From Escherichia virus TH47: a DNA stretch of 64,000 bases. The position numbers and the translations under genes were made by a program. The DNA is taken from the sequence record MT446416.1; one strand, 5' to 3'. Shown here in pieces: positions 3,412 through 56,514 of this stretch. The notes beneath the pieces were generated by a model. It did not search any database and was not told the origin of the DNA. It saw only the letters and a program-made list of their open reading frames with translations. Positions within the stretch are counted from its first letter, which is position 1. Each line of letters opens with the position of its first letter.

Positions 3412-3439
3412 ATTATATCACATTCTTTGCGTTTGTCAA
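3412..3439 (-). promoter_or_regulatory. sigma70-type promoter TTGACA-N16-TGaTATAAT driving the ClpA-like gene
   Basis: Minus-strand reading TTGACAaacgcaaagaatgtgaTATAAT; consensus -35 and extended -10, about 32-nt leader to the ATG. Confidence 0.6.
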
Positions 3440-25385: not shown

Positions 25386-26714
25386 TTAACCAAGAGAGCG
25401 TGCTTTACGTACTAGGTCAGAGTACTTCATAACGAAGTCTTTAAACGCTGGTACATCTTTAATCGTAATCGCTACTTTATGAAGCGTGATGGTACGAATC
25501 GCCAGTACTGCCAGTTCTGCTTGAGTTGCAGAGAAGTTATGGTCTAGGAAGGTGATGAAGTTGTTGCACAGCTTACCCCAATCTTCCACTGGTAGACGTT
25601 GTTCTTGCTTCTCATTGTAGAGGTCGATAATTTTGTAAACCAGATTCAGAGTGATGAAGTAGTTCGCGGAAATATCAAGCGAAGCATCAATCTCTTTAAT
25701 CTCACCCTGTAGGATGGACATGGTATCTGGTAGTTTAGCTACGTTATCAACATACTCGATGTATTCAGTTGCTACGCCTTCACCAACACGACCTGCAATC
25801 ATCGCACGGAACACTTCTTTATCAATGTTCTTAACTTTCTTCAGATCTTCGTAGCGTGCTACTGCTTCCCATGAACGTGGAGAAGTACCACCACAGTGAG
25901 AAGGATCTTGTGGGCTAAGGGTGTTGAAGTGTTTAGCACCAGTGTTGTTGATGAACGCAACAGTTGCTGGGTTCAAACGCTTGCCAATCGCATAATCGTT
26001 AATCCAATCTTGATGATAAGGAATCATTTCGATGTGGGTCATACGGTCACGCAGTGGTGTAGCTAGAGAGAACGTTACACCGCCATCAGTTTCACGGTTA
26101 CCTGCTGCGAGAATCAGTGCAGTCTTAGGTAGCTTCATCTCACCAACACAACGGTCGAGGATTAGCTGGTAAGACGCTGCCTGTACAATCGGCATTGCAG
26201 AGTTGATTTCGTCAAACAGGATAACACCTTTCCAATCATCGGGCAATTTCAGTACTTTTGGTGCTGCCCACACAACTGCTGTTTCAGCGATGTAATCTTG
26301 TGCACTAGCCAGTTCAGATTCAATCAGTTGCTTACCATCCATATCAAGGAACACTTTCTCTGGAACTGGAATACCACGAAGGTCACTTGGTTCAATCTGA
26401 GACAAACGGAAATCGATAAAGTTAGTGTCTTGGTCGATTAGTTTGGCTTCAAACGCTGCCAGTTCACGGCGAAGTTGATCGGCATTTTCAGTATCAGCTT
26501 CGATTTGTTGTTTCATGAACTCAATTTTTGCCACGTTATCTTTACGCAGTGGGTAGTTCTCATCAGCGTATTGACGTGCGATAGCAGATTTACCGATACC
26601 AGGGCTACCCCAAATCATCAGGCTATCTTGAATCATGTCAGCCAGTGCCATTGCTTCTTTAGCTTTCTTAGGAGTCAGTTTTACGTTCAGGATATCGTTG
26701 TTTTGAGTAGACAT
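25386..26714 (-). CDS. MoxR/CbbQ-like AAA+ ATPase
   Basis: Walker A GSPGIGKS, Walker B ILFDEIN, coiled-coil insertion; AAAGGAAAA SD. Confidence 0.75.
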   Translation of the reverse strand: MSTQNNDILNVKLTPKKAKEAMALADMIQDSLMIWGSPGIGKSAIARQYADENYPLRKDNVAKIEFMKQQIEADTENADQLRRELAAFEAKLIDQDTNFIDFRLSQIEPSDLRGIPVPEKVFLDMDGKQLIESELASAQDYIAETAVVWAAPKVLKLPDDWKGVILFDEINSAMPIVQAASYQLILDRCVGEMKLPKTALILAAGNRETDGGVTFSLATPLRDRMTHIEMIPYHQDWINDYAIGKRLNPATVAFINNTGAKHFNTLSPQDPSHCGGTSPRSWEAVARYEDLKKVKNIDKEVFRAMIAGRVGEGVATEYIEYVDNVAKLPDTMSILQGEIKEIDASLDISANYFITLNLVYKIIDLYNEKQEQRLPVEDWGKLCNNFITFLDHNFSATQAELAVLAIRTITLHKVAITIKDVPAFKDFVMKYSDLVRKARSLG

Positions 26715-26885: not shown

Positions 26886-26913
26886 ATTATATCACATCGT
26901 TCAGGCTTGTCAA
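26886..26913 (-). promoter_or_regulatory. promoter P2 (TTGACA-N16-TGaTATAAT) with A-rich UP element
   Basis: Minus-strand aaaaaaaagttgTTGACAagcctgaacgatgtgaTATAAT; part of a ~70-bp direct repeat. Confidence 0.65.
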
Positions 26914-26979: not shown

Positions 26980-27007
26980 ATTATATCACATCATTCGGCG
27001 TTGTCAA
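26980..27007 (-). promoter_or_regulatory. promoter P1 (TTGACA-N16-TGaTATAAT) with A-rich UP element
   Basis: Minus-strand aaaaaaaaagatgTTGACAacgccgaatgatgtgaTATAAT; second copy of the repeat. Confidence 0.65.
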
Positions 27008-43051: not shown

Positions 43052-43528
43052 TTATTTTATAATGTATAAGTGTTTTTCTGCATTAACCAGTCTGTGGTCA
43101 ATGATTTCTTTGATAACGTTCCAGTTACCACCGCCTAAATCGGCTCCAATTTTCGGGAAGTGTACATGAACAGTGCGTTCAACGTTACATAAGTAATTGA
43201 GTTGTTTGAAAACATCATCGATTGCATCATAACTCACATACTTAGAACCGTCATTACCATAGTACTTTTGGGTAATGCAGTTTGCGATAAGCAAATCATC
43301 ACTTATAGAAGAATATGAAATTTGTCCTGTTCTTAGAAATCCCATTTCCTTTTCATATGCTTTATAATCATCATATGCCATCGGGTAACGATTTCTTAGT
43401 TCTTTTGCAAAACCCGAACCCATCTTACCCTGTGCATTACAACCATGAGCGATTATATGCAACGCGGTTTGATCATCAGTAACAGTGTTGAACAATTCAA
43501 ACAAATTACCTAGGTGTTCATGTATCAT
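43052..43528 (-). CDS. macro-domain-like protein (ADP-ribose binding/processing fold)
   Basis: HGCNAQGKMGSGFA and FPKIGADLGGGNW resemble the two glycine-rich macro-domain motifs; GGAGAA SD. Confidence 0.55.
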   Translation of the reverse strand: MIHEHLGNLFELFNTVTDDQTALHIIAHGCNAQGKMGSGFAKELRNRYPMAYDDYKAYEKEMGFLRTGQISYSSISDDLLIANCITQKYYGNDGSKYVSYDAIDDVFKQLNYLCNVERTVHVHFPKIGADLGGGNWNVIKEIIDHRLVNAEKHLYIIK

Positions 43529-44110: not shown

Positions 44111-44358
44111 TAATTCCAGCGACCTTCTTTAAGACCTTCAACGAAACCAGTACAGCCACCTGGAACGTAAACATCGTTTACGAAAATTTGTGGAACCTGT
44201 CGTACTGGCTCGCCACATAGTTCAGATAGTTTAGCACCATCAATACCAGCGGTAACAATATCGATAAACTCCATATCAAATTTGTTATTTTCACATACTG
44301 CTTTTGCAGTGTCGCAGAATTTACAACCAGTAGTGCGACCATAAATTTTAACTTTCAT
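44110..44358 (-). CDS. glutaredoxin/NrdC-like redoxin
   Basis: CKFC active-site CxxC near N-terminus and PQIFVND...GG motif. Confidence 0.65.
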   Translation of the reverse strand: MKVKIYGRTTGCKFCDTAKAVCENNKFDMEFIDIVTAGIDGAKLSELCGEPVRQVPQIFVNDVYVPGGCTGFVEGLKEGRWN

Positions 44359-44758
44359 TTCTTTTCCCTTTATTTCGTTGAAACATCGTAACAGCCTTTA
44401 TTATACTGTTACACATTCGTTCAGTCAAATACTTTTGACAATCTAGTACATCAATGTACATGAACTTATCCAATTCTGGGTGACTTCTACCATATCGGTT
44501 TGTGTAAGTACTCTTACACTCTAACTCTTCTGGTATAGGCTTATCTTTGGCTGTATAGAAAAATAAAACTAAACGTTTCCCCTTTCTATACGATACATCA
44601 CCAAGAAACAGAAGATCATCTTCATCGATTTCATATCCTGTCTCTTCGTAGCATTCGCGAACAGCAGCCTCTTTAAATGTTTCTGTACCTTCAGTTTTAC
44701 CTTTAGGTAAGTCCCAGTGATTCTGTCCGTGTTGTATGCCCGATAAGTATCTGACCAT
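44348..44758 (-). CDS. Nudix hydrolase (second copy)
   Basis: Nudix box GKTEGTETFKEAAVRECYEETGY; start ATG 44758 very close to a -10 element (possible short leader). Confidence 0.65.
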   Translation of the reverse strand: MVRYLSGIQHGQNHWDLPKGKTEGTETFKEAAVRECYEETGYEIDEDDLLFLGDVSYRKGKRLVLFFYTAKDKPIPEELECKSTYTNRYGRSHPELDKFMYIDVLDCQKYLTERMCNSIIKAVTMFQRNKGKRNES

Positions 44759-44834
44759 CACGATAAAATATTATACCACAACTATAACGCATAATCTTAT
44801 CTCTTTATCATCAAGTGATGTTCAGATACTAGTA

Positions 44835-44867: not shown

Positions 44868-45983
44868 TTAGAACATTTGCTTGATTGCTTCAATACGCAA
44901 TTCAGCAACAAAATCACGAATCTCTGATGTTTGGAGTTCACCATCTTTCACTAACTGCTGAATATCAGGTAATTCAACATCAGTATAACGATCATAAACT
45001 TTAATAATCAAATCTTCAAGATCAGAATCAATTTCTTTGTTCAAAATGAAGTTTTCCAGTACTTTGTAAAGGAAATCTTCGCCACCATTGTTTTTGATAT
45101 TCATCTCCAGTAAGATTTGTCCCATTTCAACGGGGGTCTTCTTACGGAAGGTTTTAATATCTTCACGGAAACGCTTGATGTAATTACTAAACTTCACGTA
45201 CTTAACTGGAACCTTAATAGAACCATTAAGTACTGAATCATTATTTACTTCTTCATTTTCAAGAAGTACTGTCCATAAGAAATATGGTTTATATTCTTCT
45301 GTACAATTTGCAGCGATAGCATCAATTAATTCCAGACGTTTCTTGGTAACTGGAACTGTAGTAAATGCCTTTTCGTAATAACCAAATTGTACCAGAGTTT
45401 TGATAAACTTGGAAGGGTTTTCTTCAGAAAGTGCTTTTTCGAATTCAACAAAAACACGATCTGGAACTAGATGGTCTAGTTCACCAGTACTAACCATATC
45501 TTTACACATTGTCATAGTATCATCATGGATTGTAAAGTCTGAGTAACGTGTAGCGAAACGTGCCAAACGTAGTACACGCAATGGATCTTCTTTAAAGTGT
45601 TCTGATACATGACGAAGTACTTTGTTCTTGATATCAGCTTTCCCGCCATAAGGGTCGATGTGAATCTGGAGTACTGGATCATACGCTATGCTATTTACCG
45701 TAATATCCCTTCTGTATAGATCTTGCTCTAGTGTCACGCCTTTAGTATTCACTTCGAAGCCACCGTAGCCAGTACCAGTTTTACGTTCGGTACGTGCCAA
45801 TGCGTGCTCATTACCCTCTGGACTTAGATACACTGGAAAATCCTTACCTACTTGCTTATAGCCAATACTTTGTAAGTACTTAATATCGGATTCGGTAGCA
45901 CCGACAATGACATAATCTTTGTCTTTTGCACGAATACCCATTAAACGGTCCCTCACATAGCCGCCCACCAAATACTTTTTCAT
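44868..45983 (-). CDS. cca: tRNA nucleotidyltransferase (CCA-adding enzyme), head domain only
   Basis: YLVGGYVRD...KDKDYV, EHALARTERK, GYGGF, TLEQDLYRRDITVNS, EDPLRVLRLARF match E. coli Cca as recalled; no HD domain. Confidence 0.85.
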   Translation of the reverse strand: MKKYLVGGYVRDRLMGIRAKDKDYVIVGATESDIKYLQSIGYKQVGKDFPVYLSPEGNEHALARTERKTGTGYGGFEVNTKGVTLEQDLYRRDITVNSIAYDPVLQIHIDPYGGKADIKNKVLRHVSEHFKEDPLRVLRLARFATRYSDFTIHDDTMTMCKDMVSTGELDHLVPDRVFVEFEKALSEENPSKFIKTLVQFGYYEKAFTTVPVTKKRLELIDAIAANCTEEYKPYFLWTVLLENEEVNNDSVLNGSIKVPVKYVKFSNYIKRFREDIKTFRKKTPVEMGQILLEMNIKNNGGEDFLYKVLENFILNKEIDSDLEDLIIKVYDRYTDVELPDIQQLVKDGELQTSEIRDFVAELRIEAIKQMF

Positions 45984-47047
45984 AATATACCTTCCTCTGA
46001 AAGATGTTTTTTTAATACAGTTAAGTGGTCTTCATAATATGTTACACGTATTAATTTAATAAAATTCTTTTCACAATATTGTGTCTTTATAGTATCGTTA
46101 TCCTTGATGTTTTTCAATTTATCTTCTCCACCCCAATGAGGTGATTTCTCAAAATGTTGTTTACCATCATACTCAATACAAATATCATAATCAACCAAAT
46201 AAAAATCAAATCTTAATAACATTTTATTTTTACAGTCACTAAATGTTTGTTCTTTATTAAATTTTATACCATTTTCAATTAAAAAACGTGTTATTTCTCT
46301 ACTAGCTCTGGATTCAGTATGTTCAGATGAGCATATTGGGCAACCTTGTTTTTTATTTTTTGCTATATGAAAATTTGGAATGATATAAAAAGAATTATTA
46401 TGTTTTTTACAAATTATTTCAACATGAGTGCTACTATTAATGTAGATGACTTTTGAATAGTCATATACATTACCATGAATTTCTTTTGCTCGTTCAACAA
46501 ATTCAGCGGTGGTGAATGCGTGTGCTAATCTGGTTTTTTCAAATCGACAAATAGAGCAACCCTGACCACTTTGTATATTACTAATTTCCATTTCATCAAC
46601 GTGACCACATTTTAAGCATTTATAAGTTAATTTGGTTCTTTTATCTTTAATTATTGGTTGTTCTAAAAGTAATTCACATTCACCAGTCATTAGACTTTTT
46701 GAAGTCTTATAAAGATAATATCTATAATTTGCATTGTCATATTTCCCAATGATATATTTCATACCTTTCGTTTTTATATCATTTATATTTCTTTTTGTAT
46801 ATATAATACCATCTTTTTCAACAACAGTTCTTGTAAAACTAGATTTCCATTCATCACTTGATGTTATAGCAAATCCTAAAATATTATATCCTTTTTCTAT
46901 TATTTCTTCAAAATGTTCTTTAGGTGTTTTTGATGTTTTAATTAATTTTGGTGATAAATCTTCGGGACGCATCCATTCGAAACGCATACCTAATTCTTCA
47001 TGGAAATATACCTTCTCGTTATTTTCATTAAAATAAAATTTATACAT
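45980..47047 (-). CDS. homing-endonuclease-like protein (zinc ribbons plus Vsr-like nuclease motif)
   Basis: CLKCGH...CSIC and CPIC zinc-ribbon pairs; RFDFYLVDYDICIEYDGKQHF motif shared with the 39257-41251 protein. Confidence 0.55.
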   Translation of the reverse strand: MYKFYFNENNEKVYFHEELGMRFEWMRPEDLSPKLIKTSKTPKEHFEEIIEKGYNILGFAITSSDEWKSSFTRTVVEKDGIIYTKRNINDIKTKGMKYIIGKYDNANYRYYLYKTSKSLMTGECELLLEQPIIKDKRTKLTYKCLKCGHVDEMEISNIQSGQGCSICRFEKTRLAHAFTTAEFVERAKEIHGNVYDYSKVIYINSSTHVEIICKKHNNSFYIIPNFHIAKNKKQGCPICSSEHTESRASREITRFLIENGIKFNKEQTFSDCKNKMLLRFDFYLVDYDICIEYDGKQHFEKSPHWGGEDKLKNIKDNDTIKTQYCEKNFIKLIRVTYYEDHLTVLKKHLSEEGIL

Positions 47048-47190: not shown

Positions 47191-47613
47191 TTAAATCAAT
47201 CTGTCACGTAGACGGTCGTAATATTTTGCATGTATATCTAGTATACACTGAAATGATGGATAGTCAATACTAAATGTATCATCAATGAACATGTACTGAT
47301 CAAGTGTTTCAGGACCATTATCAACAACTGGCAATGAACCTTCTTTTTTTGACAGTGTGTTCCACATCAACTCACATGTAGTATCGAAAATTGCGTATGT
47401 TAATTCTATCTTACTTTTTCTAAGTGTAATTAATAATTCATCATTCTCTTCTAACGAGTTTCGTATTTTTATACGTACAGTACCCTGAAATTTATTAGTG
47501 GTTAGTACTCTATATTGATTATACGAAATTATACCTCGTATTTCAGTACTGATTTCTTGTTCAGAAAAGAACCTTACTGTACTGTGGAAATTTGGTATTT
47601 TACGAATGTCCAT
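47191..47613 (-). CDS. hypothetical protein, paralog of next gene
   Basis: Shares QYxFIDDTF(S/G)xD(Y/F) motif with 47600-48013. Confidence 0.45.
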   Translation of the reverse strand: MDIRKIPNFHSTVRFFSEQEISTEIRGIISYNQYRVLTTNKFQGTVRIKIRNSLEENDELLITLRKSKIELTYAIFDTTCELMWNTLSKKEGSLPVVDNGPETLDQYMFIDDTFSIDYPSFQCILDIHAKYYDRLRDRLI

Positions 47614-48013
47614 TCAAATTCCTTTCGTATATATGGTATACGTTCATTATACTATTATATAGATCAAAGTCAAATCCAAATGTGTCATCAATGAACTGAT
47701 ATTGTAGATATTCTTCATATGAAGCATCAATTGGTAATGAGCCATTACGCACATCATCTGATTTAAAATCGTCAATGTATCTTAATGTTATGTCTTCATC
47801 AACCGTGATATCTATCATCAACGTATCGTCACTGTACCATAGGTTGTGTATACGGATGTAAAGTCTCTTAGCACGATTAAACCAAGATACATTGGTATAG
47901 CGATGAAGTTTGTCTAAATTGAAGAAAAAACCTGACTCGTTCTTACTTATGTTTTTAATATGTTCTGCAATCGGTTCAATTATATGAACAATGTTGAATG
48001 TTTTCATAAACAA
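47600..48013 (-). CDS. hypothetical protein, paralog of previous gene
   Basis: Shared C-terminal motif; tandem arrangement. Confidence 0.45.
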   Translation of the reverse strand: MFMKTFNIVHIIEPIAEHIKNISKNESGFFFNLDKLHRYTNVSWFNRAKRLYIRIHNLWYSDDTLMIDITVDEDITLRYIDDFKSDDVRNGSLPIDASYEEYLQYQFIDDTFGFDFDLYNSIMNVYHIYERNLNGHS

Positions 48014-48202: not shown

Positions 48203-48595
48203 TTATAAAAAGTAATTGTACATTTTATTGTACAATATAAAAAGGTCTTTCACATTATCATAAGTAATATTAGATACATCATGAATTAATGATAACTGAA
48301 AAAATGATGCTTCGTCTATATCTACTGGGATTATAACATCATCGTCTTCGTCCATTTTATTGGTGTAGTATTTTATGTGATCAGCATTCATCTCAATAGA
48401 GAACGCAAGGTTGGATTTTGTATAATCTTCAATTAATCCGATAAATTTAGATTTTTCATTAATAAAAAATCCAATCCCAAAACAACGGTTATCTGAATAT
48501 GGATAGTACCATCTATTAAAAACTAGGCTTTCAGGTAAATCATCATCATGTGTTGATACGAGAGATTTTACTACATCTACCCAAACATAATTCAT
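48203..48595 (-). CDS. hypothetical protein
   Basis: 130-aa ORF. Confidence 0.45.
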   Translation of the reverse strand: MNYVWVDVVKSLVSTHDDDLPESLVFNRWYYPYSDNRCFGIGFFINEKSKFIGLIEDYTKSNLAFSIEMNADHIKYYTNKMDEDDDVIIPVDIDEASFFQLSLIHDVSNITYDNVKDLFILYNKMYNYFL

Positions 48596-48648: not shown

Positions 48649-48981
48649 TTACTCTTCGTCTTCAGTCAAGTCTTCTTGAACTGGATGTTCTGGGTGGTTA
48701 CGGCGATGCAATTTGATGCTTTTGTCTTTACCTAAGACAGTTTCCATTTTTTCAAATGAATCACCAATTGCTTTGTATAAATCTGCATCATCGGCTGTAA
48801 CACTCTTACCGCCTGATGTTAAAGTTACGGAATATTGGTTCTTATGCTCTTTCTTCACATGAACACCAATATGCAGTACTGAAGAATCACTAAACTTCGT
48901 TAGTGCATTTGCTTCAGCATGAATTGCGTCATTGATTGCTGGAGTAATATCAACATTACCTTGGATAACTAAATCTAGCAT
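48649..48981 (-). CDS. ribosome hibernation factor-like protein (HPF/RaiA family)
   Basis: Collinear with bacterial HPF as recalled: GNVDIT, VTLTSGGKSV, DLYKAIGDSFEKME, KDKSIK; acidic tail. Confidence 0.6.
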   Translation of the reverse strand: MLDLVIQGNVDITPAINDAIHAEANALTKFSDSSVLHIGVHVKKEHKNQYSVTLTSGGKSVTADDADLYKAIGDSFEKMETVLGKDKSIKLHRRNHPEHPVQEDLTEDEE

Positions 48982-49005
48982 AATTTACCTACCTTTTTTT
49001 TAGTT

Positions 49006-49932
49006 TTAAAGATTACTAACTAACAATTCTGCACGGTTTCCTACTTGACGATACCATAGAGAATTCTTAATTTCTTTTTTGAACTTGTTATCATTTTGAT
49101 TATCAACGCTTTTCCATAATTTATTGAAAGTATTTAACTTATCAACTCCTAATGTAAATGCCATCTCAAATAAAATTCGTTGTTGTTCAGCCGTAAGGTT
49201 TGTTGCATTTCTTTTCTTCAATAATAAAACTAAATCATTATTAGTTCGTTCCATGTCAGACAATAAAAGTTTATGTGCTTGTGACTTCGTAATACCATTA
49301 CGATACTTACTTGCATCTGATTCTTTCTTTCCAAGATAATGTCCGTACCCAATAGTGAAGTTACCTTTTATATCACGATACGGATAAAATTTAGAATTTC
49401 GATATGGAACTCCAACTTTCCCACCAAGTAAACGTCGTTTGTTCTTGGACTGAAATTCAATAGAACCTTCAGCTTCTTTGATGTGATTGACAATTTCTGG
49501 ATCTTTATAATCAAACAGTACAGTCACATCTGGTAACAATACGTGCTTCAAATCCTCTTTTGTTGGGATAAAGATACCCTGAGAAGTATGAAGAGTTGCA
49601 TTTAAGTTGATGTTCTTCAACAAAATGACATAATCTTCAATCTGTACATTTTTAGGTTTAAATTTCTGTGCAATAGAATAATAACTATCACCAGGTTGAA
49701 CCGTATAATGTTTCTCGCTGCTTGGAACTGCTTTTGGTACTGATACCTTTGGTAGTTCCTGCTTTTGAATTTGAGTAAACTGTGGTTTTAAATTATGCAC
49801 CTGACTTTCGTCTAATGATGGTACATGATCACTTTGAGAAAAACCATAAAATCCAATAGCAGCGAATAGGGCTGATGAAACTAATACGCCTACGGCAATT
49901 TTAGTTTTCAGTGCTTTTTTCGCTTTTTTCAA
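49006..49932 (-). CDS. endolysin: N-terminal signal-anchor, LysM, T4-lysozyme-like (GH24) domain
   Basis: TM KIAVGVLVSSALFAAIGFYGF; LysM YTVQPGDSYYSIAQKF; catalytic EAEGS...YRDIKGNFTIGYGH; start likely TTG 49932 after AAGGAGG. Confidence 0.75.
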   Translation of the reverse strand: MKKAKKALKTKIAVGVLVSSALFAAIGFYGFSQSDHVPSLDESQVHNLKPQFTQIQKQELPKVSVPKAVPSSEKHYTVQPGDSYYSIAQKFKPKNVQIEDYVILLKNINLNATLHTSQGIFIPTKEDLKHVLLPDVTVLFDYKDPEIVNHIKEAEGSIEFQSKNKRRLLGGKVGVPYRNSKFYPYRDIKGNFTIGYGHYLGKKESDASKYRNGITKSQAHKLLLSDMERTNNDLVLLLKKRNATNLTAEQQRILFEMAFTLGVDKLNTFNKLWKSVDNQNDNKFKKEIKNSLWYRQVGNRAELLVSNL

Positions 49933-50099
49933 AACGCCTCCTTTGTTGGTTGTTAACAATGAGCAATCACAAAGAGGGCAAAGAGGCCATTTGCAAAAGC
50001 CTCATTGGACTTTCTACAGTACTCAGTTGTTCTTTGGAACATTTAAGTAGTATAGCATACTTTTTAGTTATATCAAGACCTATTTACCAAATAACCACA

Positions 50100-50510
50100 T
50101 TAATCGTAATATGTTCTACCAATGGTGATGTGATATTTGAAATATTTAGATGCTAAACCAAGTTCATCACGAATTTGTGCAATGAAATCATCTTCAAACT
50201 CTATGATAAAGAATGACCCAGGTTTCTTATTGTCTTTTACTTCTTCGATGAAAGGTTCGAACTTAATCTTAACTTTCATACCATCGTACTTTTTCCAGTA
50301 CTCTGGATTTGGTGGCACTTCACCACGAACGATACTGACATGTGCTCCCCATTGGGGGTCTTTAATATCAATATGTAAGTCAGTTCTGATGAAGTACTGG
50401 TAGTATCGAACCAACTGTAATGGAAGTTGCAGTACTAACCAGAAGTCCTTCTTCTTTTTCATAGTGCCACGATCTGGATCATACACCAGAGTTCCTTCCA
50501 TTTCAATCAT
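50100..50510 (-). CDS. 2H phosphoesterase superfamily protein
   Basis: Two H-x-S/T-x motifs, HVSI and HITI, about 67 residues apart. Confidence 0.55.
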   Translation of the reverse strand: MIEMEGTLVYDPDRGTMKKKKDFWLVLQLPLQLVRYYQYFIRTDLHIDIKDPQWGAHVSIVRGEVPPNPEYWKKYDGMKVKIKFEPFIEEVKDNKKPGSFFIIEFEDDFIAQIRDELGLASKYFKYHITIGRTYYD

Positions 50511-55399: not shown

Positions 55400-55843
55400 T
55401 TATTGTAAAACTTTAAGTTTGTAAAGCATTCCTTCACAAAAACTCATAATGTCTTCTAGTGTGTTAGTACTGCCATAGTCTTCAGCCTCTTCAAGCATAG
55501 CATGAATGGCTTTACATTGACTAACATATTCTTCAAGAATTGGTACACAATCCTCGATAGGGGTAAAACGATAACTGTTACCAGTACCTACCTGTAATGC
55601 CCCGCGAGTGTTCATAATACCCTCTACAAATGCATCAACGTACTCAGGTAACTCTTTGTATAGTTCATCCAATTGTAGATGCTTAGTGTAGAAATGGCTC
55701 TGTAAATGCCAGTTGTGAGCAGCAGCACTTAAAAATAAACTATTCTCAATAAATGTAAGTAGTACTTCATCATAAGAACTATCTTCTTCAGTATCTCCAA
55801 TAAAGTCCATAACGTGGCGAAGTGTTGATATATCTTCATTCAT
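55400..55843 (-). CDS. hypothetical protein
   Basis: Start at ATG 55843 (GAGGATG SD) rather than 55876. Confidence 0.4.
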   Translation of the reverse strand: MNEDISTLRHVMDFIGDTEEDSSYDEVLLTFIENSLFLSAAAHNWHLQSHFYTKHLQLDELYKELPEYVDAFVEGIMNTRGALQVGTGNSYRFTPIEDCVPILEEYVSQCKAIHAMLEEAEDYGSTNTLEDIMSFCEGMLYKLKVLQ

Positions 55844-55872
55844 ATAATTACATCCTCTATGTGTATTCATAT

Positions 55873-56514
55873 TCATATTTTATTTATAGTAATGGTGATA
55901 TTAAAACTTTCTATATCATTCTTTAATATATCAACTCGTTTTCGTAAACCATCTATAACTTCTGGTATTACATCATTTTTATACATCTCTATTAACTCTT
56001 CTATATATTTTTTCTTTTCTATCTGCCACGCACGATGTGCATCTTCTGGAGTTTCATAAACACCAATGTATGTTGTTTTATTATATATTGTTATTTTAGC
56101 ACAATAAGGTTTGGTATATTCACTCACCATGTCTTTTGGACGTTTTCTGTATATCACTCCCATTCCATATGGTGATGCATTTGCAGCACTGTCTAGTATA
56201 CAGTAATTCAATTCTTTGGGAACAAATGCACATGTTTCAGGAGAATAGATTTTCTTACTCCCACCAATAATATCTTTATCTAATTGATATCCTTCTTTAT
56301 AATGTGATTTGTACCAAATTTTAAATTTTGAATAATACTTCCACTCATCACATACAACAGTTCCAATATAAGAACCCTTAGCCTTATCGGAATAGCATCG
56401 GTCTAACATACGTTGCCATGCACAATATATTGCTCGATCTGGATTTGTTATACTAGCATCACCTTTTATATCACAGATGCCATGACCATAAAACTTCTTC
56501 ATTAATTTATCCAT
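55873..56514 (-). CDS. putative DNA-binding protein with AP2-like domain
   Basis: W..M..RCY...Y.G..VC.EW module and C-terminal YIGVYETPEDAHRAWQ AP2-like motif; no nuclease motif seen. Confidence 0.45.
   Translation of the reverse strand: MDKLMKKFYGHGICDIKGDASITNPDRAIYCAWQRMLDRCYSDKAKGSYIGTVVCDEWKYYSKFKIWYKSHYKEGYQLDKDIIGGSKKIYSPETCAFVPKELNYCILDSAANASPYGMGVIYRKRPKDMVSEYTKPYCAKITIYNKTTYIGVYETPEDAHRAWQIEKKKYIEELIEMYKNDVIPEVIDGLRKRVDILKNDIESFNITITINKI

What the first reader, a model, noticed from the sequence alone, without database searches (positions are those of the whole stretch)
48649..48981. Phage-encoded ribosome hibernation factor homolog
The 110-aa protein is collinear with bacterial HPF/RaiA and adds an acidic tail. 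A phage copy could silence or protect host ribosomes during infection.
Basis: partly seen in the sequence, partly recalled or inferred. Interest (0 to 1): 0.55.

Follow-up and report, generated by a model that had tools for sequence, protein, structure and literature searches.

The report
Jumbo-phage RaiA-like ribosome hibernation factor
This is a real, conserved gene of a giant E. coli phage encoding a small protein of the bacterial ribosome-hibernation (HPF/RaiA) family; such phage copies are already annotated and published, and what they do during infection has not been shown.

Summary
Window 48649..48981 (minus strand) is an intact 110-aa ORF with a good RBS. It matches Pfam Ribosomal_S30AE above the gathering score. 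It is predicted to fold as beta-alpha-beta-beta-beta-alpha, and the 37 best PDB fold matches are all HPF/YfiA/RaiA-family hibernation factors.

The window comes from an Asteriusvirus (121Q/PBECO4-type, about 350 kb E. coli jumbo phage). Orthologs 76-99% identical are in GenBank/RefSeq, and several records already annotate them as "HPF/RaiA family ribosome-associated protein" or similar. Phage HPF homologs were published in 2019, and the ortholog in phage Sharanji is listed in a 2025 genome paper.

The acidic tail is not an addition. The architecture is RaiA-type: a core domain, then about 20 residues with an Arg-Arg motif and an acidic end, as in E. coli RaiA (...FVEEVEEE).

The gene is under purifying selection (dN/dS 0.13-0.23; tail 0.03-0.06). 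Its synteny (lysozyme, HPF, terminator, then CCA-adding enzyme downstream) is kept across jumbo-phage genera.

About half of the published ribosome-contact positions are kept. The Arg83 equivalent and the basic face of helix 1 are lost.

Most likely it binds the 30S tRNA/mRNA cleft as RaiA does. The effect on infection is untested, and the one published test of another phage HPF found no ribosome association. Already known; modest interest.

The parts
48649..48981 (-). HPF/RaiA-family gene (110 aa). Core domain is residues 1-90 (b-a-b-b-b-a). The tail is residues 91-110, with R93-R94 and an acidic end DLTEDEE.
   Evidence: ORF; Pfam PF02482 at 43.6 bits; AF2 topology; Foldseek PDB hits; family alignment; dN/dS 0.13-0.23
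48985..48994 (-). Shine-Dalgarno-like sequence (AAGGTAGG) about 5 nt upstream of the ATG, within the short spacer after the lysozyme gene.
   Evidence: Read from the sequence. An RBS is annotated at the equivalent place in phage UE-S1.
48614..48640 (-). Intrinsic-terminator-like hairpin (11-bp stem, then UUUUCUUAU) directly after the stop codon; it closes the transcription unit.
   Evidence: Terminator scan; RNA fold -19.9 kcal/mol, z -4.1, 0 of 200 shuffles as stable; a terminator is annotated at the same place in UE-S1
49006..49932 (-). Upstream gene, probably co-transcribed: membrane-anchored LysM + phage lysozyme. The likely true start is the TTG at 49932 behind AAAGGAGG, not the longer ORF starting at 49959.
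   Evidence: Pfam Phage_lysozyme and LysM; start inferred from the alignment with annotated relatives
50049..50076 (-). Sigma-70-like promoter with an extended -10 (TTGATA-N13-TGcTATACT) upstream of the lysozyme-HPF pair. It is conserved in UE-S1, vB_Ec-M-J and 121Q.
   Evidence: Promoter scan; alignment; this promoter class is enriched in the window, 20 matches against 5.95 expected
49975..50017 (-). Conserved element of unknown role in the 5'UTR (GTAGAAAGTCCAATGAGGC...GGCCTC, with a hairpin) between the promoter and the lysozyme start.
   Evidence: Nearly invariant across three jumbo-phage lineages; no Rfam match; single copy in the window

Best explanation
The gene encodes a RaiA-type member of the HPF/YfiA (Ribosomal_S30AE) family, carried by an Asteriusvirus jumbo coliphage. 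By homology (inferred, not shown), the b-a-b-b-b-a core inserts into the tRNA/mRNA cleft of the host 30S subunit in vacant 70S ribosomes. The predicted contacts use the aromatic F30/K29 pair, T53 on the sheet, the basic track of helix 2 (K78, K85, K87) and R93-R94. The 20-residue tail would then run toward the platform and RMF site, as the RaiA tail does. The predicted result is a pool of parked, nuclease-protected 70S monomers kept out of RMF/HPF-driven 100S dimers, during the long infection cycle or in slow-growing hosts. The gene appears to be transcribed together with the upstream LysM-lysozyme gene, from a conserved sigma-70-type promoter to a hairpin terminator. Shown here: family membership, fold, RaiA-like architecture, purifying selection, conserved synteny and the layout of the transcription unit. 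Inferred: ribosome binding, the binding site, the effect on 100S formation and the benefit to the phage.
For: Pfam match above the gathering score. Profile hits to 23 solved HPF/RaiA sequences, E down to 1e-10. Fold matches only to hibernation factors, with TM-scores (target-normalised) up to 0.76. The tail aligns with E. coli RaiA: RRNHPEHPVQEDLTEDEE against RRAATSVKDANFVEEVEEE. Acidic ends are common among 105-130-aa family members, 21 of 40. Published contact positions from bioRxiv 10.1101/2025.10.07.680626 were mapped onto the family. K29, aromatic 30, K80, K87, K89 and RaiA R96 equivalents are kept in 16 of 16 members; the R95 equivalent is basic in 15 of 16; the T53 equivalent is kept in 11 of 16. 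Invariant His/Lys residues occupy beta-2 positions that contact the m2G966 loop in other species. dN/dS is 0.13-0.23 overall and 0.03-0.06 in the tail. The lysozyme-HPF-CCA-enzyme synteny holds in a lineage only about 35% identical.
Against: The whole phage clade lacks the arginine equivalent to Arg83 (T81), described as the single essential contact to m4C1402. It also lacks R17, K23 (now Glu), K26 and K91. It does not reach the NCBIfam cut-offs for yfiA (34.4 against 40.9) or for E. coli HPF (20.3 against 125). BLASTP finds no alignment to E. coli HPF and only 25% identity to RaiA. The only experimental test of a phage HPF, from phage rV5 (a different lineage), found the protein in the cell extract but not in 70S or 100S ribosomes, and saw no change in 100S (PMC6375957). 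Blocking ribosomes globally would also hit phage translation, so the benefit is not obvious. Some Salmonella Asteriusvirus records carry truncated copies.
Confidence: 0.5

Rival explanations
1. Anti-hibernation competitor. The protein binds the same 30S pocket, but more weakly, because Arg83 and the basic residues of helix 1 are lost. Its RaiA-like tail evicts or excludes host RMF, and so also HPF-dependent 100S formation. Host hibernating ribosomes would be converted to 70S particles that initiation factors, including the phage's own IF3, can quickly reactivate. The net effect would favour phage translation in starved hosts.
For: A RaiA-type tail is present and is the most constrained part of the protein. 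The contacts nearest h44 and the decoding centre are lost, while the sheet and helix-2 contacts are kept. Mizuno et al. proposed that viral HPF might compete with cellular homologs and prevent ribosome dimers (PMC6375957). Asteriusvirus genomes also encode IF3, tRNAs, a CCA-adding enzyme and a tRNA deaminase (PMC11895373). The sigma-70-type promoter would allow expression from the start of infection.
Against: There are no affinity or displacement data of any kind. Weaker binding is inferred from sequence alone. E. coli RaiA has the same architecture and is itself a translation inhibitor. Expression timing has not been measured.
Confidence: 0.2
2. Repurposed RNA-binding protein. The HPF fold has been kept, but the target is no longer the ribosomal decoding cleft. 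It could be another RNA, such as a phage mRNA, a tRNA or another structured RNA, or another partner recruited through the acidic tail.
For: Five of the basic positions typical of the family are lost, and a clade-specific invariant motif HVKKEHKxQ has appeared. The rV5 phage HPF showed no ribosome association. Below the hibernation factors, the next fold matches are dsRNA-binding domains, though weakly at E>0.01. The neighbourhood is rich in RNA and nucleotide enzymes: CCA-adding enzyme, a weak 2H phosphoesterase match, Nudix and a weak macro-domain match.
Against: No member of PF02482 is known to work away from the ribosome. About half of the mapped ribosome contacts are still invariant, including the aromatic residue that stacks on A790 and the RaiA-specific RR motif. 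The overall charge pattern and length match RaiA.
Confidence: 0.15
3. Neutral passenger. The gene is a captured host gene with no role in infection.
For: Truncated or internally deleted copies occur in four Salmonella Asteriusvirus records. No phenotype has been reported.
Against: dN/dS is 0.13-0.23 at dS up to about 1. The gene is retained with its synteny in lineages only 30-47% identical. It has its own RBS, a conserved promoter and a terminator. It is much more diverged from host HPF/RaiA than a recent capture would be. The Salmonella records are shorter genomes with other fragmented genes, so their quality is uncertain.
Confidence: 0.05

Closest known systems
E. coli RaiA (YfiA / protein Y), ribosome-associated inhibitor A
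   Same: Same fold and nearly the same length (110 against 113 aa). It has a single HPF domain followed by a tail of about 20 residues, with an Arg-Arg motif at the same alignment position and an acidic C-terminal end. The helix-2 lysines (K80, K87) and the aromatic residue at position 30 are kept.
   Different: Identity is only about 25%. RaiA is not hit by single-sequence phmmer at E<=10 and appears only with the family profile. The phage protein lacks R17, R23, K26, R83, Q84 and K91 equivalents and carries a clade-specific HVKKEHK strand. It is encoded by a virus and expressed next to a lysozyme gene, not under host cold-shock or stationary-phase control.
E. coli short HPF (YhbH)
   Same: Same core fold (6h4n, TM-score 0.73 normalised to the target). 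The family profile matches it at E 6e-8.
   Different: Short HPF ends right after helix 2 with a basic C-terminus and works with RMF to form 100S. The phage protein has the extra tail. NCBIfam PRK10470 scores 20.3 bits against a cut-off of 125, and BLASTP finds no alignment.
Phage HPF homologs already described: Cronobacter phage GAP32 and the rV5-like coliphages (Mizuno et al. 2019, PMC6375957)
   Same: These are phage-encoded PF02482 proteins of 105-111 aa in large myoviruses of Enterobacteriaceae. GAP32 is a jumbo phage of comparable genome size (358,663 bp), and its protein has the same fold (BFVD K4F6Q6).
   Different: The rV5 lineage is about 44% identical to E. coli HPF, which suggests a separate and more recent capture (129 records). 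It is not detected with this protein as the query. GAP32 is only about 20% identical. The rV5 protein was tested and not found on ribosomes. The Asteriusvirus protein has not been tested.
Coxiella burnetii CBU_0020 (HPFcold), PDB 9T0Z/9TZE
   Same: This is the closest solved protein by sequence (E 1e-8 with the single sequence, 1e-10 with the profile). Its N-terminal domain sits in the 30S decoding cleft of monomeric 70S ribosomes (bioRxiv 10.1101/2025.11.08.686982).
   Different: CBU_0020 is 183 aa and has a C-terminal cold-shock domain that holds the anti-Shine-Dalgarno end. The phage protein has only a short acidic tail. CBU_0020 keeps the arginine aligned with phage T81 (alignment).

Membership tests
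HPF/YfiA superfamily (Pfam PF02482 Ribosomal_S30AE) | Profile match at or above the curated gathering score | tested here: met
   43.6 bits against 23.7, E 5.2e-11, covering 80 of 88 model positions
HPF/YfiA superfamily (Pfam PF02482 Ribosomal_S30AE) | beta-alpha-beta-beta-beta-alpha fold | tested here: met
   AF2 elements E2-8, H14-30, E36-46, E49-56, E59-65, H68-85. The top 37 Foldseek PDB hits are all hibernation factors of this family.
HPF/YfiA superfamily (Pfam PF02482 Ribosomal_S30AE) | Conserved 16S rRNA-contact residues (E. coli numbering: aromatic 30, T53, K80, R83, K87, K91) | tested here: inconclusive
   Aromatic 30, K80, K87 and K89 are kept in 16 of 16 clade members, and T53 in 11 of 16. 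R83 is T in 14 of 16, K91 is I/V/M, and R17, K23 and K26 are lost (contact list).
HPF/YfiA superfamily (Pfam PF02482 Ribosomal_S30AE) | Binds the 30S A/P-site cleft and blocks tRNA/mRNA | not testable with these tools
   Needs ribosome co-sedimentation or cryo-EM. The only phage HPF assayed (rV5) was negative (PMC6375957).
RaiA (YfiA/pY) subtype | Single domain plus a C-terminal extension of about 20-25 aa, with no dimerisation domain | tested here: met
   110 aa. The tail (91-110) is disordered in the model. It aligns with the RaiA tail, including R95-R96 against R93-R94 and the acidic end.
RaiA (YfiA/pY) subtype | Reaches the curated cut-off of an NCBIfam model for the YfiA/RaiA family | tested here: not met
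   TIGR00741 (yfiA, HPF/YfiA family) scores 34.4 bits, below its cut-off of 40.9. No RaiA-specific model was hit.
RaiA (YfiA/pY) subtype | Tail blocks RMF binding and antagonises 100S formation | not testable with these tools
   Inferred only from architecture. In cryo-EM of host YfiA the tail heads toward the RMF site, and the last 12 residues are unresolved.
Short HPF (YhbH, NCBIfam PRK10470) | About 95 aa, ends after helix 2, reaches the equivalog score | tested here: not met
   20.3 bits against a cut-off of 125. It has an extra 20-aa tail. BLASTP finds no alignment to E. coli HPF.
Long HPF (Gram-positive / Thermus type) | C-terminal dimerisation domain after a linker (about 180-190 aa) | tested here: not met
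   The protein is 110 aa and has no second Pfam domain. Matches to long HPFs cover only their N-terminal domain.

The most novel reading that the evidence does not exclude
The Asteriusvirus protein is not a silencer. It is a viral anti-hibernation factor: a RaiA mimic with deliberately weakened decoding-centre contacts. Its invariant acidic tail would displace RMF and dismantle host 100S ribosomes, handing 70S particles to the phage's own IF3 and tRNA machinery. That would let a jumbo phage replicate in starved, non-growing E. coli.
Probability: 0.15. Interest if true: 0.65.

Novelty: already known. Interest (0 to 1): 0.28.

Why it matters
Phage copies of hibernation factors raise a real open question: does a virus put host ribosomes to sleep, protect them, or wake them up? 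This gene belongs to a conserved, strongly constrained jumbo-phage lineage with RaiA-like architecture, so it is a reasonable candidate for answering that by experiment. The existence of the gene and its family assignment are not new. Orthologs are annotated in RefSeq and GenBank, phage HPFs were reported in 2019, and the Sharanji genome paper lists the ortholog among translation-related genes. The new information here is limited to four points. The tail is RaiA-type and is the most constrained part of the protein. About half of the published rRNA-contact positions are kept, while the Arg83 equivalent and the basic face of helix 1 are lost. The gene forms a promoter-lysozyme-HPF-terminator unit. 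That arrangement is conserved across jumbo-phage genera.

Tried and rejected
(1) Wider homolog searches. The word-indexed search returned only 16 close phage relatives. The exhaustive HMMER search of 1.84 billion representatives gave only 59 hits at E<=1e-3, five of them below 1e-10. One strong hit, P0017 (1605 aa, 29 stretches), is a tandem-repeat protein and was set aside as uninformative.

(2) The search for related loci with the mixed alignment A3 failed because it had no conserved stretch. With A2 it found only 121Q itself in IMG/VR. With the sister-clade alignment it found four jumbo-phage contigs.

(3) A sigma-54 modulation role was considered and rejected. It is only the historical name of the family and nothing here supports it.

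(4) Long HPF or HPFcold membership was rejected because there is no second domain.

(5) Rfam searches of the whole window and of the local region found nothing relevant. The single weak CsrC hit is just the terminator hairpin.

(6) There are no tRNA genes in the window.

(7) The virion proteome paper for phAPEC6 contains no mention of ribosome, RaiA or translation. The genome papers for UE-S1 and fEgEco12 do not discuss the gene. No transcriptomic data for this phage group were found, so expression timing remains an inference.

(8) An attempt to read Polikanov 2012 by PMC id failed because the paper is not held. Contact residues were taken from a 2025 preprint instead.

(9) My first promoter-pattern search used the wrong spacer length and missed the site. 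It was corrected.

Full report

The ORF list gives an ATG-started ORF of 110 codons at 48649..48981 on the minus strand. The sequence AAGGTAGG lies 5 nt upstream of the ATG.

The translated protein matches Pfam PF02482 (Ribosomal_S30AE, the HPF/YfiA family) at 43.6 bits. The gathering score is 23.7 and the E-value is 5e-11. The match is collinear over residues 8-87 against model positions 5-84 of 88.

NCBIfam's general yfiA model scores 34.4 bits, below its cut-off of 40.9. The E. coli short-HPF equivalog scores only 20.3 against 125.

In PHROGs the protein has its own family, phrog_34864, labelled function unknown (E 2e-54). It also has a weaker link to the S30EA phrog.

phmmer against PDB sequences returns only hibernation factors, the best at 1e-8. 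A profile built from 16 family members raises this to 23 solved HPF/RaiA sequences, the best at 1e-10. These include E. coli HPF (6e-8) and E. coli RaiA (5e-6).

An AlphaFold2 model built on the family alignment has a confident core (block-mean pLDDT about 76-91 over residues 1-80, falling to 70 for 81-90) with beta-alpha-beta-beta-beta-alpha topology. Residues 95-110 are disordered. Its 37 best Foldseek matches in the PDB are all HPF/YfiA/pY/RaiA-family hibernation factors, with target-normalised TM-scores up to 0.76.

**2. What genome is this?**

The surrounding DNA matches 35 phage records. All are jumbo myoviruses of E. coli or Salmonella with genomes of about 310-386 kb, in the genus Asteriusvirus (121Q, PBECO4, phAPEC6, Sharanji, UE-S1 and others). 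The nearest are Ecwhy_1, vB_Ec-M-J, EC.P1 and WPEC5, at 91-95% DNA identity over 3 kb.

tblastn finds the protein in 37 records, at 76-99% identity in most E. coli phages.

Several of these records already name it:
- "HPF/RaiA family ribosome-associated protein" (RefSeq 121Q and PBECO4; UE-S1)
- "ribosome-associated inhibitor A"
- "ribosome hibernation promoting factor"

UniProt/BFVD has the PBECO4 ortholog as "Ribosomal subunit interface protein".

**3. What is already published?**

Mizuno et al. 2019 (PMC6375957) reported PF02482 proteins in cultivated phages: Cronobacter jumbo phage GAP32 (111 aa) and six rV5-like coliphages (105 aa). They expressed the rV5 protein in E. coli. They detected it in the cell extract but not in purified 70S or 100S ribosomes, and saw no change in 100S. 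They speculated that viral HPF might compete with host factors and prevent dimer formation.

The Sharanji genome paper (PMC11895373) lists the Asteriusvirus ortholog among "factors that regulate translation", together with a phage IF3, a CCA-adding enzyme, a tRNA deaminase and seven tRNAs. It reports no experiments on the gene.

I found no paper that tests the Asteriusvirus protein.

**4. Anatomy of the protein**

I aligned the phage family with E. coli HPF and RaiA (taken from NC_000913.3) and with 54 diverse family representatives. The offset is a constant two residues through helix 2 and into the tail.

The phage tail RRNHPEHPVQEDLTEDEE lines up with the RaiA tail RRAATSVKDANFVEEVEEE. Short HPF stops right after helix 2.

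Among non-phage representatives of 135 aa or fewer, 21 of 40 have a net charge of -3 or lower in their last ten residues. The 94-105-aa ones mostly end basic. One caveat applies: these representatives were retrieved with a profile that included the tail.

The architecture is therefore RaiA-type, and the acidic tail is a family feature, not an addition.

Within the phage family the tail end D104-L-T-E-D-E-E110 is almost invariant.

**5. Ribosome-contact positions**

A 2025 cryo-EM preprint (10.1101/2025.10.07.680626) lists the contacts shared by HPF and YfiA in four Gram-negative species:
- the helix-2 basic track K80, R83, K87 and K91, plus K89 in HPF
- R83 as the single essential arginine, touching m4C1402
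- aromatic residue 30, stacking on A790
- K26 and residue 29 on the phosphates near m3U1498
- T53 with residues 60 and 62 on m2G966
- R95/R96 in Klebsiella YfiA

I mapped these onto the phage clade of 16 sequences.

Kept:
- K29, 16 of 16
- F/Y30, 16 of 16
- T53, 11 of 16
- K78 (equivalent to K80), K85 (K87) and K87 (K89), each 16 of 16
- R93 (equivalent to RaiA R95), basic in 15 of 16, and R94 (R96), 16 of 16

Lost:
- R17, now H/N/Q/E
- K23, mostly Glu
- K26
- R83, now T in 14 of 16
- Q84, now V
- K91, now I/V/M

A clade-specific invariant stretch, H41-V-K43-K44-E-H46-K47-x-Q49, occupies beta-2 and the beta-2/beta-3 loop. Positions 40, 42 and 45 there make contacts in other species.

My reading is inference. 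The protein can still dock in the same pocket, but with contacts redistributed away from h44 and the decoding centre and toward the head (the h31 loop). I cannot tell whether this weakens binding.

**6. Evolutionary constraint and distribution**

Nei-Gojobori estimates were made between the window gene and the orthologs in UE-S1, vB_Ec-M-J and 121Q. They give dN/dS of 0.13-0.23 at dS up to about 1. The core gives 0.13-0.30 and the tail 0.03-0.06, though the tail rests on few sites.

The family is small and restricted to phages. There are 16 clusters in 5.8 billion proteins and only 59 significant hits among 1.84 billion representatives.

The next-nearest clade (P0018-P0021, 103-107 aa, ending ...TDTEE or ...EDDE) is found in jumbo phages of Salmonella and Klebsiella (Munch, 7t3, SE_PL, fENko-Kae01) and in viral contigs of 137-366 kb. 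It is annotated there as a ribosome-associated inhibitor.

One such contig, L006, carries an HPF about 90% identical to the sister-clade representative P0018, which is itself about 35% identical to ours. It keeps the same gene order: 2H-phosphoesterase-like gene, LysM-lysozyme, HPF, small paralogous ORFs, CCA-adding enzyme, Nudix.

The gene therefore looks like an old, retained component of this jumbo-phage group and not a recent host capture. By contrast, the rV5-like lineage (129 records) is about 44% identical to E. coli HPF. It is not detectable with our protein as the query, which points to an independent acquisition.

Four Salmonella Asteriusvirus records have internally deleted or N-terminally truncated copies. 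Those genomes are 25-40 kb shorter and have other fragmented genes, so I give this little weight.

**7. Transcription unit**

On the minus strand the order of features is as follows.
- A conserved sigma-70-like promoter with an extended -10: TTGATA, 13 nt, then TGcTATACT, at 50076-50049.
- A 5'UTR of about 110 nt.
- The LysM-lysozyme gene. Its real start is probably the TTG at 49932, behind AAAGGAGG.
- A 24-nt spacer containing the HPF RBS.
- The HPF gene.
- An 11-bp hairpin followed by a U-rich tract, at 48640-48614 (-19.9 kcal/mol, z -4.1). UE-S1 has a terminator annotated at the same place.

The promoter pattern is over-represented in the window, with 20 matches against 5.95 expected. Four are perfect matches to the degenerate pattern, and three of these read TTGACA-N13-TGTGATATAAT. 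This fits a class of promoters read by host sigma-70 holoenzyme. That would allow early expression, but timing has not been measured.

In phAPEC6, one of the two predicted lysozymes was not detected in the virion proteome (PMC7247149). I could not confirm that it corresponds to the LysM-lysozyme gene here.

**8. Mechanism**

Best-supported (confidence about 0.5): a RaiA-like factor that occupies the tRNA/mRNA cleft of vacant host 70S ribosomes. Its tail would be directed at the RMF site, giving parked and protected 70S monomers and opposing 100S formation.

Rivals:
- A weak-binding competitor that wakes hibernating ribosomes for the phage (0.2).
- A repurposed RNA-binding protein that no longer uses the ribosomal pocket (0.15).
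- A neutral passenger (0.05, contradicted by the constraint and synteny).

The membership tests give this result. It is a member of the PF02482 superfamily by sequence and fold. Its architecture is RaiA-type, but it is not an equivalog of enterobacterial RaiA or HPF. It is not a long HPF.

**9. Novelty and score**

The gene, its family assignment and the general idea of phage-encoded hibernation factors are all in public records and papers. A specialist would not be surprised. The open question is functional, and it can be tested by experiment with standard ribosome biochemistry. Interest is about 0.28 and the novelty class is "already known".

Noticed in passing
window 49975-50017 (minus strand); also L001 4971-4989, L010 18974-18992, L006 4985-5003, L008 4984-5002, L011 1644-1662: A non-coding element of about 45 nt lies in the 5'UTR of the lysozyme-HPF operon: GTAG(A/G)AAGTCC(A/G)A(T/C)GAGGCTTT..CAAA..GGCCTC, with a GAGGC/GCCTC hairpin. 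It is nearly invariant across three jumbo-phage lineages whose HPF proteins are only 30-47% identical, while the rest of the UTR does not align. It is a single copy in the window and has no Rfam family. It could be an operator or attenuator that controls timing.
   Followed up: partly
window 45980-47047 (minus strand): A 355-aa ORF with a DUF4379 treble-clef zinc-finger match sits between a 40-aa ORF and the CCA-adding enzyme gene. It is absent at this position in UE-S1, vB_Ec-M-J and 121Q. It looks like an inserted mobile gene of the homing-endonuclease type.
   Followed up: partly
window 3412-3439, 26886-26913, 26980-27007, 50049-50076 (all minus strand), and weaker sites: A class of near-consensus sigma-70 promoters with an extended -10 (TTGACA-N13-TGTGATATAAT) is over-represented: 20 matches at up to 2 mismatches against 5.95 expected. 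Two perfect copies lie 94 bp apart upstream of the gene at 25386-26714.
   Followed up: partly
window 47191-47613, 47600-48013, 48203-48595 (minus strand); L006 6361-6780, 6790-7194: Two of the three small ORFs directly downstream of the HPF terminator (47191-47613 and 47600-48013) share a C-terminal motif (..Y/F.Q...(I/V)DD(T)FG..Y) at 40% identity over 42 aa. The third (48203-48595) has only a weak match to an L006 counterpart. They look like tandem paralogs. Counterparts occur at the same place in a distant jumbo-phage contig. They have no Pfam match.
   Followed up: partly
window 50100-50510 (minus strand): A 136-aa protein has a sub-threshold match to the 2H phosphoesterase 'Swiss Army Knife' domain (23.8 bits against a gathering score of 27). 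It is conserved upstream of the lysozyme-HPF pair in L006 as well. Nearby are the CCA-adding enzyme (44868-45983), a Nudix gene (44348-44761) and a weak macro-domain match below the gathering score (43052-43528). Together these form a neighbourhood enriched in RNA and nucleotide enzymes.
   Followed up: partly
window 55400-55876 (minus strand): A DUF5856 protein (97 bits) lies about where 121Q has a gene annotated as 'starvation-inducible DNA-binding protein'. I did not check whether the two are orthologs. If they are, the phage may carry look-alikes of two stationary-phase host factors (Dps-like and RaiA-like) within 7 kb.
   Followed up: no
Salmonella phage records OR699188.1, OR699183.1 (L011 2499-2651), OR699181.1, OR699182.1: The HPF homolog is internally deleted (74 aa, residues 22-57 missing) or reduced to its C-terminal 40-55 residues. 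The neighbouring lysozyme gene appears fragmented as well. This is either real gene decay in a Salmonella-adapted sublineage or an assembly problem.
   Followed up: partly
P0017 (from the representative search, not in the window): A 1605-aa predicted protein made of about 29 tandem copies of a 53-aa unit scored E 2e-34 against the family profile, over profile positions 40-82. It is probably an assembly or repeat artefact. I did not examine it further.
   Followed up: no
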